NCBI GenBank assembly: GCA_019057865.1
Contig: JAHLWP010000001.1
Coordinates: 160,001 to 224,000 of the forward strand
Direction of reading: 5' to 3'
Origin: Promethearchaeota archaeon
GTDB lineage: Archaea > Asgardarchaeota > Lokiarchaeia > Sigyniarchaeales > SOKP01
Length of the DNA stretch: 64,000 nt
Below the pieces are notes generated by a model. That model was not told where the DNA came from. It ran no database searches and saw only the letters and a list, made by a program, of their open reading frames with translations. Both the position numbers and the translations under genes were made by a program. The first letter of the stretch is position 1, and every line of letters starts with the position of its first letter. Shown here in pieces: positions 254 through 4,927 of this stretch.

Positions 254-1066
254 TTGTATTATATGATAAAAAGTATATATTTCTTGGACGAGAATGGATT
301 TTTGTTATATTCCAAAAATTTTATGAAAGAAAAATATGATGAAAATATCTTAATAGGATTTTTTTCATCAATCGCTAACTTTAGTAGAGAAGCTTTAGGA
401 GGTTTAGTTAAAAATGTTGATCTCGGGGAAAATAATAAGCTTATTTTACTACCGAATTCAGAAGAAAGAATTCTCGTAGCTACTGTTGTAAGTACTAATG
501 ACAATAACGATTTAGTTACATTAATTGTTAAAAATATAATGCAAGATTTCATTGATTCTTATTCACCTGATTATGATCTTGAAACAATTTACCCTGATGA
601 TATGGAAAGAATAATTAACAATAATTTAAGAGGGAAAATTATGCCTTCTCCAAGGATAAAATTATTATTGTCATGGCTAATCGTAGGATTTTTATGCTAT
701 TTTCTAATTCTCCTGAGCATAAACGTAACTTCTTTTATGTATACATCTTTTAATTTGAACCGATTCTTTACTCCAGAACAATTATTTACAAGATTTATGC
801 CTATTTTAATATTATTGTCTACAATAAATATAATTATTTTATTTTTGCTCCCTAATTTAATTCTAGGGTTTTTGTCTCTAAATTGGAAAATTGCTACTTT
901 AAACTCTTTCATATATCTAGGGATAACTATTACACTATATTTCTATTCAACAGAACCTAATTTCGCCTATATTATTGTAGGGCATTTACCATTGTCTTTA
1001 ATCTTCTCTCTGTTTTTCCTCTTTATTGGTGCAAGATATTCATCAAAAATGTTTTTAAAAAGATAA
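254..1066 (+). CDS. Longin-like N-terminal domain protein with about 4 C-terminal transmembrane helices
   Basis: IYFLDENGFLLYSKNF...LIGFFSSIANFSRE pattern typical of longin/roadblock-like folds; hydrophobic C-terminal half; ATG at 263 is the likelier start. Confidence 0.6.
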   Translation: MYYMIKSIYFLDENGFLLYSKNFMKEKYDENILIGFFSSIANFSREALGGLVKNVDLGENNKLILLPNSEERILVATVVSTNDNNDLVTLIVKNIMQDFIDSYSPDYDLETIYPDDMERIINNNLRGKIMPSPRIKLLLSWLIVGFLCYFLILLSINVTSFMYTSFNLNRFFTPEQLFTRFMPILILLSTINIIILFLLPNLILGFLSLNWKIATLNSFIYLGITITLYFYSTEPNFAYIIVGHLPLSLIFSLFFLFIGARYSSKMFLKR

Positions 1067-1196: not shown

Positions 1197-1784
1197 GTGA
1201 GAGTCCTTATGATTATCCCTAAAGTAACGAAGAAGATCCAAGTAATATGTCCAATCTGTAAATCTAAGGATATAGTTGGCATACCAGAATCAAAGATGAA
1301 AACAAAATCTCAATTAATAACAGTTTCAATTCATAAGGGGTTAATCTGCCCTCATCATTTTCAAATTTTTATTGATAAAGATTTTCATGTTCGCGGGTAT
1401 CAGAAAGTAGATCTTGAATTGGAACAAAATAATGTTAAGAACTTAAGAAATGGGGTAAAAGCGTTTATTCCGCATGAAGAGGACGACGAAGAATTGTTTG
1501 AAAATATTATTATGGAGGGCAATTCTTTAAAATACCGCCCTTTAAATTATGCCGATAATGAAAAAACAACCTGCAGAAAGAATGAAAATGTCCCAAGAAA
1601 AAAAGACATGACTTTAAAAGAAATTTATGAGGAATTTTGGGAATTTATTGATGAAGAAAATGAAGAATTTCGAGATTTCATTATTAATGATAAAAGAAGG
1701 AAAAAATTTCCCATGGATTGTGAATATATTGAAGTTTTTAACCATTTGAATTTAGAATCAAAAAATTCAATAGAGAATTTCTAA
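1197..1784 (+). CDS. Hypothetical protein with N-terminal Zn-binding motif
   Basis: CPIC...CPHHF motif; intact 195-aa ORF. Confidence 0.6.
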   Translation: MRVLMIIPKVTKKIQVICPICKSKDIVGIPESKMKTKSQLITVSIHKGLICPHHFQIFIDKDFHVRGYQKVDLELEQNNVKNLRNGVKAFIPHEEDDEELFENIIMEGNSLKYRPLNYADNEKTTCRKNENVPRKKDMTLKEIYEEFWEFIDEENEEFRDFIINDKRRKKFPMDCEYIEVFNHLNLESKNSIENF

Positions 1785-1982: not shown

Positions 1983-3502
1983 ATGTCATATAAATTACCA
2001 GACGAGAAAGATTTAGAAGCTATGATAGGCATTGTGGGAAAAGAATATGCTACAAATAATAAAGCTATTACTGCGTCTTACCTGTCGAAATCAGTAATGG
2101 GTTTAGAAATCTATTATCCAAAATCGGATAATGACTAAAGAGCCAAATCCCTGATATCGTCGTTCGACCGAAATTTGTTGAAGAAATCCGTAAAATCTTA
2201 ATATATTGCTCTGCAGAAAAAATTGCAGTGAGTCCCGTTTCAGCAGGATTATCTGGTGGCTTTGCTTGCCCAACAATTAAGCCCGGTGGAGTACTTCTCG
2301 ATTTAGGAAGAATGAACAGGATTATTGAAATTGATACAGAGAATCGGTATGTCGTTGTCGAACCGGGGGTAACAATTGGTGAACTTTGGGCTTATATGCA
2401 TAAGAATACTCCAGATTGGGCGCCCCCTATACCAGATGGTGCTCCACCAGCCTCAACTGTTATGGGCGACGCTATTGATAGAGGTTTTTCTCTCTATACT
2501 TCAAGCGTTGGACCACAAGGAGATAATTTTATGTGCGGAGAAGTTGTATTTCCAAATGGTGATATTGTACGAACTGGCTCTTGGGCTCTTCCTTTTGCTA
2601 AACCTTTTTATAAATATGGGTTAGGACCTGATATTTGGTCAACTATTATGGGTAGTCAAGGAGCTTTAGGAGTGGTTACGAAAGTCGCAGTTAAGATTTT
2701 TCCACATCCTGAATTTAAGACAGTAGTTGTATGGGGTATGTCCAACCCTCATGATATGCAAGATTTAACGTTAGAAATTGGGAAACAAGAATTTGGAATT
2801 GCCCATAACACTGTTATGGTTCAAGGCGGAAATTATCATTTAGTCATGGCTCGATGGCCTAAAGATAAAGTACCCCATGATTATGAATTCTATAAAGAAC
2901 TAGGAATTAGTAAATGGTGGATGAATTGGGAGTGCTGGGCACAAACTCAAGAAGAGTTGGACTATGTAACTAATAGAATTAATAAAATGGCCGAAGATTT
3001 CAAGAAGAATAGAGCTAAAGATCCTGATGCATTAAAACCTCAGGAACTTCATCCGAAACAAATTGCAAGCAGGTTAAAAAAACCTAATAAAATTGCTATA
3101 CCCTATAGTTTCTGGGAAGCGGGATTTTTATTTATTACTTGGTACACTCCATGGAATGAATGTGCCCATTTTGCTGAAATGTATACAAAGGCAATGGAGA
3201 AATATGGATTCCCACCAGTTATGTGGATCGCGAGTATCGAACGCTGCCGACAAGCAATTTGTATGCCCATTATTTGTTTCGATTCGACTAACACCTCAGA
3301 ATTTGAAAGAGTTCAAGATATGAATAGAGAAACAACTGAATACGGGCTTAAACAAGGATGGTTGAATTATAGACCAGACCCATACATTCACGCTCCTCTT
3401 ACATATAGTCAAGCTGGAATGTACTGGAAATACTTAAGAAAGATAAAGAAGATGTTTGATCCTAATATGATAATGCATCCTGGGAGGCTTGCCCTTCCAT
3501 AA
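1983..3502 (+). CDS. FAD-binding oxidoreductase (GlcD/D-lactate dehydrogenase, VAO family); join(1983..2108,2141..3502), 495 aa after removal of a 32-nt intron
   Basis: Exon 1 MSYKLPDE...SVMGLE plus exon 2 SQIPDIVVRPKFVEEIRKIL...; motifs LDLGRMNRI, VEPGV, GSQGALGVVT, C-terminal FDPNMIMHPG. The ORF track start at 2228 omits the conserved PD.VVRP segment. Confidence 0.85.
2109..2140 (+). other. Putative BHB-type mRNA intron (32 nt)
   Basis: Outer helix GGU/GCC, 4-bp central helix UUAG/CUAA, 3-nt bulges AA^A and AG^A, inner hairpin AUUAUCC/GGAUAAU; contains in-frame TAA at 2136-2138; excision restores the frame. Confidence 0.8.
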
Positions 3503-3523: not shown

Positions 3524-4927
3524 ATGACAAAAACAGGTATGGAAAGACTCCAAGAGCTAAAAAAAGAAATTTTTAAATGTATTCATTGTAAGGCATGTAA
3601 GTTCGCTTATTCTGGTGAACCTGATAGGGAAGGAATAGGAGAGTATGCTGGAAAGCAAGGTACAGTACTTTATGAAGGAATGGTCGATGCTTGCCCCGCT
3701 GGTATAGAGTATGGTTGGGAAGCGTTCTGGAATGCAGGTAAGATTTGGATTGCTAGGTCAATATTAACGGGTGATTTAGAATTTACTGAAGAAGTCAGGG
3801 ATGTAATTTTGCCATGCATAACATGTGGTCAATGTTCAGCCCAGTGTGATAATAAGATTCCAACAGTTGATATTATAGAATCTTTACGGGCTGCGTGTAT
3901 AGAATCAGGAGTGCCTATGATCGAAAAACATGAATTAGTTGACAGATTGGTTAAAGAATTGAACAATCCATATGGAGGTAAAGCAGAAGAACGATTTAAA
4001 TGGGCAAAAGATGCTGGTTTAGAAAAATATATAGATAATAAAGAGGCCAAAATTGCATATTATGTAGGATGTACTGCAAGTTATCGACAAATAGAGGTTG
4101 CTGTTACAACTGCAAAACTATTTGAACAATTAGGAATGAATTTCACTATAATCGGAGATGAAGTTTGCTGTGGAAGTCCTTTCTTTAGGATTGGAGCTGT
4201 TGATACTGCCCAAGAATTAATGAATAAAAATTTAGAAGCTTTTAAGAATCTAGAAATGTTATATTTCAGTTGCGCGGGTTGTTATAGAACTTTTACCATT
4301 GATTATCCAAAATGGATGCCTGAAGGTGAAGAACTTCCTTTTAAAACACAGCACGCCTTTGAACTGGTGGCGAGATTAATTCAAAAAGAGAAAATCAAAT
4401 TCAAACCAAACAAAGAATTAAAGGGAAAAGTTGTCACTTATCATGATCCCTGCCATACAGGAAGACATTTCGCAGTAGATTTTGAACAAGAAATGATCAG
4501 AGAATCTAAGAATCTTATGTTCGATTCGCGAAAGATTAAGAAAAAAATCGAGGAATGGTATGAAATTCCACGTATAATTCTTAGAAAACTTGCAGAGGAT
4601 GTCGGTATTGTCTTTAAAGAGATGTATCGTATTAAACTTGATAGTATGTGTTGTGGTGCTGGTGGAGGGGTGAGGGCTGGATATCCCGATTTTTCGCTCA
4701 GAACCGCCAGTTTGCGATGTGATGAAGCGAATGCTGTTAGTGCAGATATCTTAACAACTGAATGCCCCTTTTGTTGGAGGAATTTATCCGATGCCAATGA
4801 TATGTACAATCACGGCATGAAAGTTATGGGAATTCTTCAGATGATAACTGAATATAATCTTTTAGACATGGCAGAAAAACCTAAAGAAGAAGATTTCTTA
4901 ACGCCATCTATTAGAGAGATTGAGTGA
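3524..4927 (+). CDS. Fe-S oxidoreductase, HdrD/GlpC-like (two [4Fe-4S] motifs plus CCG domains)
   Basis: CIHCKAC...CP, CITCGQC...C, CCGSP, YHDPCH, CCGAGGG, ECPFC; GGAGG ribosome-binding site upstream; 21 bp after the FAD oxidoreductase. Confidence 0.9.
   Translation: MTKTGMERLQELKKEIFKCIHCKACKFAYSGEPDREGIGEYAGKQGTVLYEGMVDACPAGIEYGWEAFWNAGKIWIARSILTGDLEFTEEVRDVILPCITCGQCSAQCDNKIPTVDIIESLRAACIESGVPMIEKHELVDRLVKELNNPYGGKAEERFKWAKDAGLEKYIDNKEAKIAYYVGCTASYRQIEVAVTTAKLFEQLGMNFTIIGDEVCCGSPFFRIGAVDTAQELMNKNLEAFKNLEMLYFSCAGCYRTFTIDYPKWMPEGEELPFKTQHAFELVARLIQKEKIKFKPNKELKGKVVTYHDPCHTGRHFAVDFEQEMIRESKNLMFDSRKIKKKIEEWYEIPRIILRKLAEDVGIVFKEMYRIKLDSMCCGAGGGVRAGYPDFSLRTASLRCDEANAVSADILTTECPFCWRNLSDANDMYNHGMKVMGILQMITEYNLLDMAEKPKEEDFLTPSIREIE

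What the first reader, a model, noticed from the sequence alone, without database searches (positions are those of the whole stretch)
1983..2150. Bulge-helix-bulge mRNA intron in a metabolic gene of a probable Asgard archaeon
Seen in sequence: the ORF from ATG 1983 encodes 42 codons (...SVMGLE) and then hits TAA at 2136. The rest of the FAD oxidoreductase (SQIPDIVVRP...) is in another frame, closed upstream by TGA at 2132. The junction folds as GGU-UUAG-AA^A-UC(U)AUUAUCC-aaaauc-GGAUAAU-GA-CUAA-AG^A-GCC. That gives an exon-exon helix (GGU/GCC), a 4-bp central helix (UUAG/CUAA), two 3-nt bulges and an inner hairpin. Established knowledge: the archaeal splicing endonuclease EndA cuts after the second nucleotide of each bulge. 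Applying that rule removes exactly 2109-2140 (32 nt), deletes the stop and gives ...GLE|SQIPD..., a full 495-aa protein. Structure and frame repair therefore agree independently. The established archaeal mRNA intron case is crenarchaeal cbf5, and I know of none in a catabolic gene or in Asgard archaea. Inference: this lineage splices protein-coding mRNAs with the tRNA machinery, and such genes would be annotated as truncated or frameshifted.
Basis: partly seen in the sequence, partly recalled or inferred. Interest (0 to 1): 0.95.

Follow-up and report, generated by a model that had tools for sequence, protein, structure and literature searches.

The report
tRNA-type intron in Asgard enzyme gene
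A 32-base insert that seems to break an FAD-oxidoreductase gene of a Loki-type Asgard archaeon is very probably a true intron, cut out of the messenger RNA by the tRNA-splicing enzymes; the papers I could search confirm this inside an archaeal coding sequence for only one gene (cbf5).

Summary
Window 2109-2140 (32 nt) interrupts a PCMH/VAO-type FAD oxidoreductase gene. Removing it gives a 495-aa protein with the junction ...SVMGLE|SQIPD..., the same junction as in 71 uninterrupted orthologues.

The junction folds as a canonical hBHBh' motif: a 3-bp outer helix, a 4-bp central helix, two 3-nt bulges and an inner hairpin. Fourteen independent assemblies carry an insert at exactly this site. The inserts are 29, 31, 32 or 36 nt long, in 10 distinct sequences. 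All keep the motif (80 of 80 pair cells), with compensatory changes between exon synonymous sites and the intron. All complete copies give 490-496 aa ORFs, with dN/dS 0.05-0.07 at dS above 1.3. So this is not a pseudogene, a repeat or an assembly artefact.

The genome encodes two EndA paralogues (alpha/beta type) and RtcB. It also has other BHB-split genes: acs (five inserts), cooS, elf1, leuS and a Zn-ADH.

New here: in this genome the intron and about 110 nt of flanking exon are mosaic. They match a distant intron-bearing lineage, which points to transfer by recombination.

Earlier notes of this scan report the same phenomenon on other Asgard DNA and elsewhere in this genome.

The parts
1983..2108 (+). 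Exon 1: 42 codons, MSYKLPDEKDLE...SVMGLE
   Evidence: It aligns residue for residue with the N-termini of uninterrupted 495-aa orthologues.
2109..2140 (+). 32-nt BHB intron. It carries TAA 2136-2138 in the exon-1 frame and shifts the frame.
   Evidence: It is unique in the genome. Inserts of 29, 31, 32 or 36 nt sit at the same site in 13 other assemblies.
2141..3502 (+). Exon 2: 453 codons plus the stop. It holds the FAD_binding_4 domain and the rest of the PCMH/VAO-type oxidoreductase.
   Evidence: Pfam PF01565 at 1.4e-22, starting at residue 6 of the frame read from 2135. PDB p-cresol methylhydroxylase flavoprotein at 7.8e-34.
2100..2102 (+). 5' strand of the outer exon-exon helix h (GGU). 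It pairs with 2142-2144 (GCC).
   Evidence: It is 3/3 paired in all 14 intron-bearing alleles, against 24 of 71 intronless ones.
2103..2106 (+). 5' strand of the 4-bp central helix H (UUAG, Leu codon plus the G of Glu). It pairs with 2135-2138 (CUAA).
   Evidence: no mismatch in 10 distinct sequences. Changes seen: U-A to C-G, A-U to G-U to G-C.
2107..2109 (+). 5' bulge AAA. Predicted cut after A2108.
   Evidence: Geometry. Cut rule from PMC2738675.
2110..2134 (+). Inner intron hairpin h' (UC-U-AUUAUCC / loop AAAAUC / GGAUAAU-GA)
   Evidence: The inner hairpin alone folds at -7.7 kcal/mol.
2135..2138 (+). 3' strand of the central helix H (CUAA)
2139..2141 (+). 3' bulge AGA. Predicted cut after G2140.
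   Evidence: The third bulge base is always the A of the Ser codon AGC.
2142..2144 (+). 3' strand of the outer helix h (GCC)
2090..2094 (+). Distal exon-exon helix, 5' strand (AUCAG). It pairs with 2151-2155 (CUGAU).
   Evidence: It is 5/5 Watson-Crick paired in all 14 intron-bearing alleles, with three different helix sequences (AUCAG/CUGAU, AUCGG/CCGAU, GUCUG/CAGAC). Only 23 of 71 intronless alleles pair 5/5.
2151..2155 (+). Distal exon-exon helix, 3' strand (CUGAU)
2029..2174 (+). Mosaic tract (CDS nt 47-160 plus the intron). It matches the intron-bearing L061 lineage, not this genome's nearest, intronless relatives.
   Evidence: Inside the tract 19 of 21 informative sites match L061. Outside it 206 of 242 match L015. 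Fisher p = 1e-12.
3524..4927 (+). Downstream partner gene (Fe-S, two CCG domains), 21 nt after the stop (context only)
   Evidence: Pfam PF02754 and PF13183. It is syntenic in intron-bearing and intronless loci.

Best explanation
Window 2109-2140 is a bulge-helix-bulge (hBHBh') intron in the pre-mRNA of an FAD-dependent (PCMH/VAO-type) oxidoreductase of a Promethearchaeota (Loki-type Asgard) archaeon. In the transcript, the end of exon 1 pairs with the 3' end of the intron (the 4-bp central helix) and with the start of exon 2 (the outer helix plus a distal 5-bp helix). The intron's own hairpin forms the inner helix. The heteromeric (alpha-beta)2 splicing endonuclease EndA cuts after the second base of each 3-nt bulge, after A2108 and after G2140. 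RtcB then joins the exons, probably releasing the 32-nt intron as a circle. The spliced mRNA encodes the full 495-aa enzyme. Unspliced mRNA gives only a 51-aa peptide. What is shown: the motif, its exact agreement with frame repair, its conservation and covariation at one site across 14 assemblies, purifying selection on the split genes, and the presence of the enzymes. What is inferred: the cleavage and ligation themselves, and any regulatory role.
For: (1) Geometry and frame repair agree. (2) Seventy-one uninterrupted orthologues read through the junction with six to ten conserved residues on either side (SVMGLE, then S/A/G-QIPD in most), with nothing gained or lost at it. (3) Fourteen assemblies carry an insert at the identical codon boundary, 29/31/32/36 nt long, in 10 distinct sequences. 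All have a 3-bp outer helix, a mismatch-free 4-bp central helix and an adjacent inner helix. (4) On the 8 alignable pairs, 80/80 cells are paired and 3 pairs change on both sides. Slid controls pair 5-48% of cells. (5) Exon synonymous sites are constrained only in intron-bearing alleles. The proximal helix is 14/14 against 24/71 and the distal helix 14/14 against 23/71 (Fisher 2.5e-6 and 1.6e-6). (6) All eight copies that reach the stop codon give 490-496 aa ORFs after rule-based removal (seven run from the start codon). dN/dS is 0.05-0.07 with dS 1.3-2.2, like intronless pairs at 0.04-0.05. (7) This genome has only one orthologue; the next paralogue is at most 31% identical. (8) The genome has two EndA paralogues, each with N- and C-terminal domains. 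One best matches chain B of the Aeropyrum EndA entries 3p1z and 3ajv. RtcB is present. PMC5829648 reports (alpha-beta)2 EndA with the L1 loop in Asgard. (9) Other genes of this genome are split the same way, with Pfam profile positions running on across the predicted junction: cooS 3-457 then 458-512, elf1 1-26 then 28-76, plus leuS, a Zn-ADH and acs. (10) The cut rule, between the 2nd and 3rd bulge residue, is the published one for cbf5 (PMC2738675).
Against: The proximal outer helix is only 3 bp and includes a G-U pair. The unconstrained MFE prefers a 5x5 internal loop, by 1.6 kcal/mol. The covariation rests on about 4 independent intron lineages, and related rows inflate the shuffle statistics. 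Recombination means the intron-bearing alleles are not fully independent samples.
Confidence: 0.88

Rival explanations
1. Split expression without splicing: the 51-aa ORF and an N-terminally truncated enzyme, started at an internal codon, are made separately.
For: A gene caller annotated the orthologue in L001 as a 448-aa protein from an internal GTG (P0013). In the window the ORF lister gives GTG 2228 as the first start in the exon-2 frame.
Against: The 29 codons 2141-2227 (SQIPDIVVRPKFVEEIRKILIYCSAEKIA) would go untranslated. Yet they are conserved at the protein level in all intron-bearing copies and form the start of the FAD_binding_4 domain. The GTG in L001 is the conserved Val codon of IVVRP, and the window has no start codon near 2141. 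This reading also does not explain the BHB covariation or the exon synonymous-site constraint.
Confidence: 0.04
2. Translational bypassing: the ribosome hops over the 32-nt hairpin, as in T4 gene 60 or the mitochondrial byp elements.
For: The gap is short, forms a hairpin and contains a stop codon.
Against: There are no matched take-off and landing codons. The take-off codon is GAA. The triplet before AGC is AAG, AAU, AUU, GUU or AAA in different alleles. No stop follows the take-off codon directly. Bypassing does not require two 3-nt bulges set 4 bp apart, nor pairing of exon 1 with exon 2, yet both are conserved. The take-off/landing rule is from my own knowledge of T4 gene 60.
Confidence: 0.03
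3. Inactivating insertion: the gene is a pseudogene, or the insert is a small mobile element or MITE.
For: The insert introduces a stop and a frameshift. The intron-bearing segment has moved between lineages.
Against: dN/dS is 0.05-0.07 over dS above 1.3, and 453 downstream codons stay open in an AT-rich genome in every copy that reaches the stop codon. There is no other copy of the 32 nt in the genome. The inserts differ in sequence and length but always sit at the same phase-0 boundary.
Confidence: 0.03
4. Assembly or sequencing artefact.
For: The genome is a MAG of 87 contigs with 5% estimated contamination.
Against: The same or a related insert is present in 13 other independent assemblies from different projects.
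Confidence: 0.01

Closest known systems
BHB intron in the cbf5 (pseudouridine synthase) pre-mRNA of Crenarchaeota (Watanabe 2002; Yoshinari 2006; Yokobori 2009, PMC2738675)
   Same: Both are short (16-44 nt there, 29-36 nt here) and lie inside a coding sequence. Both carry a BHB at the exon-intron borders, with cuts between the 2nd and 3rd bulge residues. Both are linked to a heteromeric EndA. Both show a patchy pattern of gain and loss among relatives.
   Different: The gene is different (a metabolic FAD oxidoreductase) and so is the phylum (Promethearchaeota, Asgard). The motif here is canonical hBHBh', whereas most cbf5 introns are 'unconventional' BHBs. Here it is one of many such introns in the genome and one of at least 7 positions in this gene family. 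There is evidence of transfer with flanking exon. Splicing here is not yet shown at the RNA level.
Archaeal pre-tRNA and pre-rRNA BHB introns (Marck and Grosjean 2003, as cited in PMC5829648)
   Same: The same motif, the same predicted enzymes (EndA, RtcB) and a similar size range.
   Different: The host RNA is an mRNA. The central and outer helices are built from codons, so pairing is kept through synonymous sites.
BHB intron in the 5' UTR of Haloferax volcanii HVO_1309 (PMC7714728)
   Same: An mRNA substrate of EndA, shown there by circRNA-seq and in-vitro cleavage.
   Different: It lies in the UTR, so it does not interrupt the reading frame.
HAC1/XBP1 unconventional mRNA splicing (Ire1 plus RtcB or Trl1) in eukaryotes (own knowledge)
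   Same: Endonuclease-plus-ligase splicing of an mRNA that changes the reading frame, independent of the spliceosome.
   Different: The endonuclease (Ire1) and the RNA motif (twin stem-loops) are different. It is a stress-regulated switch, which is not shown here.

Membership tests
Archaeal BHB (hBHBh') intron, substrate of splicing endonuclease EndA | Two 3-nt bulges on opposite strands, separated by a 4-bp helix | tested here: met
   Bulges 2107-2109 and 2139-2141; helix 2103-2106/2135-2138 with four Watson-Crick pairs. The same holds in all 10 distinct homologous sequences.
Archaeal BHB (hBHBh') intron, substrate of splicing endonuclease EndA | Flanking helices h (outer) and h' (inner) | tested here: met
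   The outer helix is 3 bp plus a distal 5-bp helix. The inner helix is 9 bp with one bulged U.
Archaeal BHB (hBHBh') intron, substrate of splicing endonuclease EndA | Cutting after the 2nd base of each bulge yields a functional RNA | tested here: met
   It gives a 495-aa ORF whose junction is identical to that of uninterrupted orthologues. The rule is from PMC2738675.
Archaeal BHB (hBHBh') intron, substrate of splicing endonuclease EndA | Structure conserved, with compensatory change, among homologues | tested here: met
   80/80 cells are paired and 3 pairs change on both sides. The distal helix occurs in three covarying versions. The sample is about 4 independent lineages.
Archaeal BHB (hBHBh') intron, substrate of splicing endonuclease EndA | Cognate endonuclease and ligase encoded by the host | tested here: met
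   Two EndA paralogues (PF01974 plus PF02778) and RtcB.
Archaeal BHB (hBHBh') intron, substrate of splicing endonuclease EndA | Spliced RNA or excised (circular) intron observed; cleavage by EndA | not testable with these tools
cbf5 pre-mRNA intron family (homology) | Located in cbf5 at the catalytic Asp codon, in Desulfurococcales or Sulfolobales | tested here: not met
   The host gene has the FAD_binding_4 domain and the organism is Promethearchaeota. It works like the cbf5 intron but is not a member of that intron lineage.
Translational bypass element (T4 gene 60 / byp) | Matching take-off and landing codons flanking the gap | tested here: not met
   GAA against AAG/AAU/AUU/GUU/AAA.
Self-splicing group I / group II intron | Ribozyme core of hundreds of nucleotides | tested here: not met
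   The inserts are 29-36 nt. There is no Rfam family in the window.
MITE or IS-type insertion | Repeated copies in the genome | tested here: not met
   blastn-short finds only the locus itself.

The most novel reading that the evidence does not exclude
BHB micro-introns are a genome-wide and mobile class in the protein-coding genes of Loki-type Asgard archaea. The host would depend on EndA and RtcB to express many mRNAs, from core metabolism (acs with five introns, cooS) to information processing (leuS, elf1). The introns would spread between diverged lineages at the DNA level by recombination that co-converts about 100 nt of flanking exon, without any intron-encoded nuclease. That would amount to an mRNA-splicing system of real scale in the closest archaeal relatives of eukaryotes.
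Probability: 0.55. Interest if true: 0.9.

Novelty: new member of a known kind. Interest (0 to 1): 0.8.

Why it matters
In the papers I could search, endonuclease-mediated splicing inside an archaeal coding sequence is confirmed only for cbf5 in Crenarchaeota. PMC7714728 (2020) says so explicitly. PMC2738675 notes that introns in other genes were only predicted.

This case is well supported by comparative evidence, lies in an ordinary metabolic gene of an Asgard archaeon, and sits in a genome where several other genes are split the same way. It has three consequences:

1. Gene callers mis-annotate such genes as truncated or frameshifted. P0013 is an example.
2. Gene content and pathway reconstructions for Asgard MAGs are biased.
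3. The closest archaeal relatives of eukaryotes routinely interrupt mRNAs and rely on RNA cutting and ligation to express them. This bears on ideas about how intron-tolerant gene expression arose.

The mosaic tract around the intron also makes an old question testable: how do enzyme-less BHB introns move?

Tried and rejected
- The first genome scan script timed out.
- A loose BHB plus ORF-fusion scan showed no excess over the mirror-geometry control (1674 against 1624), because gene boundaries dominate. Only after adding a folding-energy filter and short lengths did BHB geometry stand out: 2 against 0 at or below -8 kcal/mol, and 25 against 12 at or below -6 in the relaxed scan. The scan is therefore insensitive and is not a census.
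- Repeat or MITE idea: rejected.
There is no support at this locus.
- No intronless locus carries the exact spliced junction of the window-type allele, so there is no sign of a recent loss through cDNA among the fetched loci.
- ARAGORN and Rfam find no tRNA or known RNA family in the window.
- The careful maximum-likelihood tree did not finish, so only the quick tree was used.
- Literature searches for Asgard mRNA BHB introns found none. A 2026 preprint on Asgard tRNA introns does not treat mRNAs.

Full report
THE OBSERVATION. The sequence is as described. ATG 1983 opens 42 codons ending SVMGLE. The frame then runs into the insert and stops at TAA 2136. The rest of the enzyme (SQIPDIVVRP...) is in another frame from 2141, closed upstream by TGA 2132. 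Exon 2 carries Pfam FAD_binding_4 from its sixth residue and matches the p-cresol methylhydroxylase and vanillyl-alcohol oxidase flavoproteins in the PDB. Removing 2109-2140 gives a 495-aa ORF.

The junction has the stated hBHBh' layout:
- outer helix GGU/GCC;
- central helix UUAG/CUAA;
- bulges AAA and AGA;
- inner hairpin of 9 bp.

The order on each strand (helix, then bulge) is the canonical one. The unconstrained MFE merges the central helix and both bulges into a 5x5 internal loop. The BHB conformer in the same context is only 1.6 kcal/mol higher.

THE ORGANISM. The window is part of a 4.26-Mb, 29% G+C assembly of 87 contigs, estimated 99.7% complete. The closest orthologues come from MAGs titled Promethearchaeota or Promethearchaeia, the Loki-type Asgard archaea.

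IS IT A REAL INTRON? COMPARATIVE EVIDENCE.
- Junction. Seventy-one uninterrupted orthologues read straight through the junction, with SVMGLE before it and mostly S/A/G-QIPD after it, so the predicted splice gains and loses nothing.
- Other carriers. Three species-representative genomes (L001, L061, L067) and ten metagenome contigs (L086-L095) carry an insert at exactly the same codon boundary. The metagenome contigs were found with a degenerate pattern that can only match interrupted alleles. The inserts are 29, 31, 32 or 36 nt long, in ten distinct sequences. Some are unrelated in sequence to the window's.
- Motif. Every one has a 3-bp outer helix, a mismatch-free 4-bp central helix, two 3-nt bulges and an inner helix abutting the bulge.
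- Pair counts. On the eight alignable pairs, 80 of 80 cells are paired and three pairs change on both sides: U-A to C-G, A-U to G-C through G-U, and U-A to C-G. With the 3' partners slid by 1-3 columns, only 5-48% of cells pair.
- Codon constraint. Because the 5' strands are codons (Gly-Leu-Glu), these are synonymous changes in the exon matched by changes in the intron. A further 5-bp exon-exon helix (2090-2094 with 2151-2155) is fully Watson-Crick paired in all 14 intron-bearing alleles, in three covarying versions. Only 23 of 71 intronless alleles can form it. The proximal GGN/GCC helix shows 14/14 against 24/71 (Fisher about 2e-6 each). Intron-bearing alleles always use AGC for the first Ser of exon 2, while intronless ones also use AGT, TCN or Ala codons.
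- Caveat. These counts are not phylogenetically independent. There are roughly four intron lineages.

NOT A PSEUDOGENE, REPEAT OR ARTEFACT.
- All eight intron-bearing copies that reach the stop codon give 490-496 aa ORFs after rule-based removal; seven of them run from the start codon.
- Pairwise dN/dS among them is 0.05-0.07 with dS 1.3-2.2, the same as for intronless pairs.
- The genome has no second orthologue.
- The 32 nt occur nowhere else in the genome.
- The insert is present in 14 independent assemblies.

MACHINERY. The genome encodes two EndA paralogues of 200 and 207 aa, each with the N-terminal and catalytic-type domains. One is closest to chain B of the Aeropyrum EndA entries 3p1z and 3ajv and the other is more divergent. 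RtcB is also present. This fits the (alpha-beta)2 EndA with the L1 loop reported for Asgard archaea (PMC5829648). The cbf5 work linked that enzyme type to pre-mRNA splicing (PMC2738675).

THE REST OF THE GENOME. I scanned both strands for BHB geometry that fuses two open frames, and used a mirror-image geometry as control.
- Without an energy filter there is no excess.
- With one, the window's site and one in acetyl-CoA synthetase are the only hits at or below -10 kcal/mol.
- A relaxed scan gives 25 against 12 at or below -6.
- cooS: Pfam positions run on across the predicted junction, Prismane 3-457 then 458-512.
- elf1: profile positions 1-26 then 28-76.
- leuS and a Zn-ADH are split likewise.
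- acs (L085, minus strand) has five inserts of 30-33 nt. One shifts the frame, one carries a TAG and three are in frame. Alignment to solved ACS structures shows the in-frame ones as 10-11-residue insertions at the predicted sites.

THE GENE FAMILY ELSEWHERE. In other Promethearchaeota genomes the same oxidoreductase carries BHB-type inserts at six or more other positions (L044, L081, L063/L066, L066, L062/L065, and L072 twice). In each case the best-energy BHB of the right length restores the orthologous protein exactly.

HISTORY OF THIS INTRON. On a quick ML tree the intron-bearing rows are scattered. At least 4-6 changes of state are needed.

More telling is a mosaic in the window's gene:
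- Overall it is closest to intronless L015, L016 and L018 (91% nt identity).
- Across CDS nt 47-160, which spans the junction at nt 126, 19 of 21 informative sites instead match the intron-bearing L061. L061 is only 81% identical overall.
- Elsewhere 206 of 242 informative sites match L015 (Fisher 1e-12 for the best segment, before correction for about 35,000 segments).
- Thirteen of the 15 informative sites that lie outside the structurally constrained bases still match L061.
- The intron itself differs from L061's at 2 of 32 positions, although synonymous sites between the two genes are near saturation.
- L094 has the identical intron next to an upstream gene only 59% identical.

The simplest reading is that the intron, with about 110 nt of flanking exon, was exchanged between diverged lineages by recombination. 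The direction is unknown. No nuclease gene is associated with it. The upstream ORFs are syntenic in intronless loci too.

RIVALS.
- Separate expression from an internal GTG would leave 29 conserved codons of the FAD domain untranslated.
- Ribosomal bypassing lacks matched take-off and landing codons and does not explain the bulge geometry.
- The pseudogene and artefact readings are excluded as above.

WHAT IS MISSING. Cleavage, ligation, circularisation and any regulatory use of splicing are therefore inferred.

COMPARISON WITH WHAT IS KNOWN. The mechanism is that of the cbf5 pre-mRNA intron of Crenarchaeota. In the papers I could search, that is the only confirmed intron inside an archaeal coding sequence. 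Haloferax has one in a 5' UTR (PMC7714728). Five searches found nothing on Asgard mRNA introns.

Earlier notes of this scan report the same phenomenon on other Asgard DNA. That includes this very intron site in two other genomes, and acs, cooS, leuS and elf1 elsewhere in this genome. One note claims environmental RNA shows exact removal of a similar intron. I did not check that. I treat these notes as leads, and the scores rest on the tests above.

VERDICT. This is a canonical BHB intron in a new host gene and a new phylum: a new member of a known kind. It has unusually strong comparative support, sits in an intron-rich genome, and shows evidence of lateral movement.

Noticed in passing
L085 (G000:C82:1-1800), minus strand: 548-579, 413-445, 341-370, about 201-230, 95-124: The acetyl-CoA synthetase gene carries five BHB-type inserts of 30-33 nt. 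One shifts the frame, one has a TAG and three are in frame. Alignment to solved ACS structures shows the in-frame ones as 10-11-residue insertions. The fourth is a relaxed motif with a 3-bp central helix and a weak outer helix. The gene runs off the contig end.
   Followed up: yes
G000:C41:42255-42286 (+); C75:101436-101466 (+); C49:5689-5722 (+); C60:11315-11343 (-). Loci L096-L099.: cooS, elf1, leuS and a Zn-dependent alcohol dehydrogenase are each split by a 29-34 nt BHB insert. Pfam profile positions run on across the predicted junctions (cooS 457|458, elf1 26|28).
   Followed up: yes
L044 2622-2651; L081 2612-2645; L063 2707-2736; L066 2660-2689 and 2849-2878; L062 2777-2809; L065 2774-2806; L072 2695-2728 and 2804-2835: The same FAD-oxidoreductase family has BHB-type inserts at six or more other positions in other Promethearchaeota genomes. 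Several are in frame and have no stop, so gene callers read straight through them as 10-11 extra residues.
   Followed up: partly
window 2029-2174 (CDS nt 47-160 plus the intron): A mosaic tract. The intron and about 110 nt of flanking exon match a distant intron-bearing lineage (L061), while the rest of the gene matches intronless L015/L016/L018. L094 has the identical 32-nt intron beside an upstream gene only 59% identical.
   Followed up: yes
whole genome G000: ARAGORN finds only 18 tRNA genes in a genome estimated 99.7% complete, and flags 12 of them as intron-containing. This suggests most tRNA genes are too interrupted to be recognised.
   Followed up: no
L005 (DATKTW010000086.1): A contig titled 'Candidatus Nanopelagicaceae bacterium' carries a copy of this Asgard gene, 97% identical to the query orthologue P0003, and sits inside the Promethearchaeota clade of the tree. 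It is probably a mis-binned contig.
   Followed up: no
G000:C23:141068-141097 (-), outside the window: Another 30-nt BHB candidate (-10.4 kcal/mol) would fuse a 29-codon and a 392-codon frame (...AVMSC|MGCGDCGYAIRP...). The mirror-geometry control also scores at this spot, so it is uncertain.
   Followed up: no
window 254-1066 and 1197-1784 (+): Two conserved ORFs upstream of the oxidoreductase have no Pfam match. They are syntenic in many related loci, with or without the intron.
   Followed up: partly
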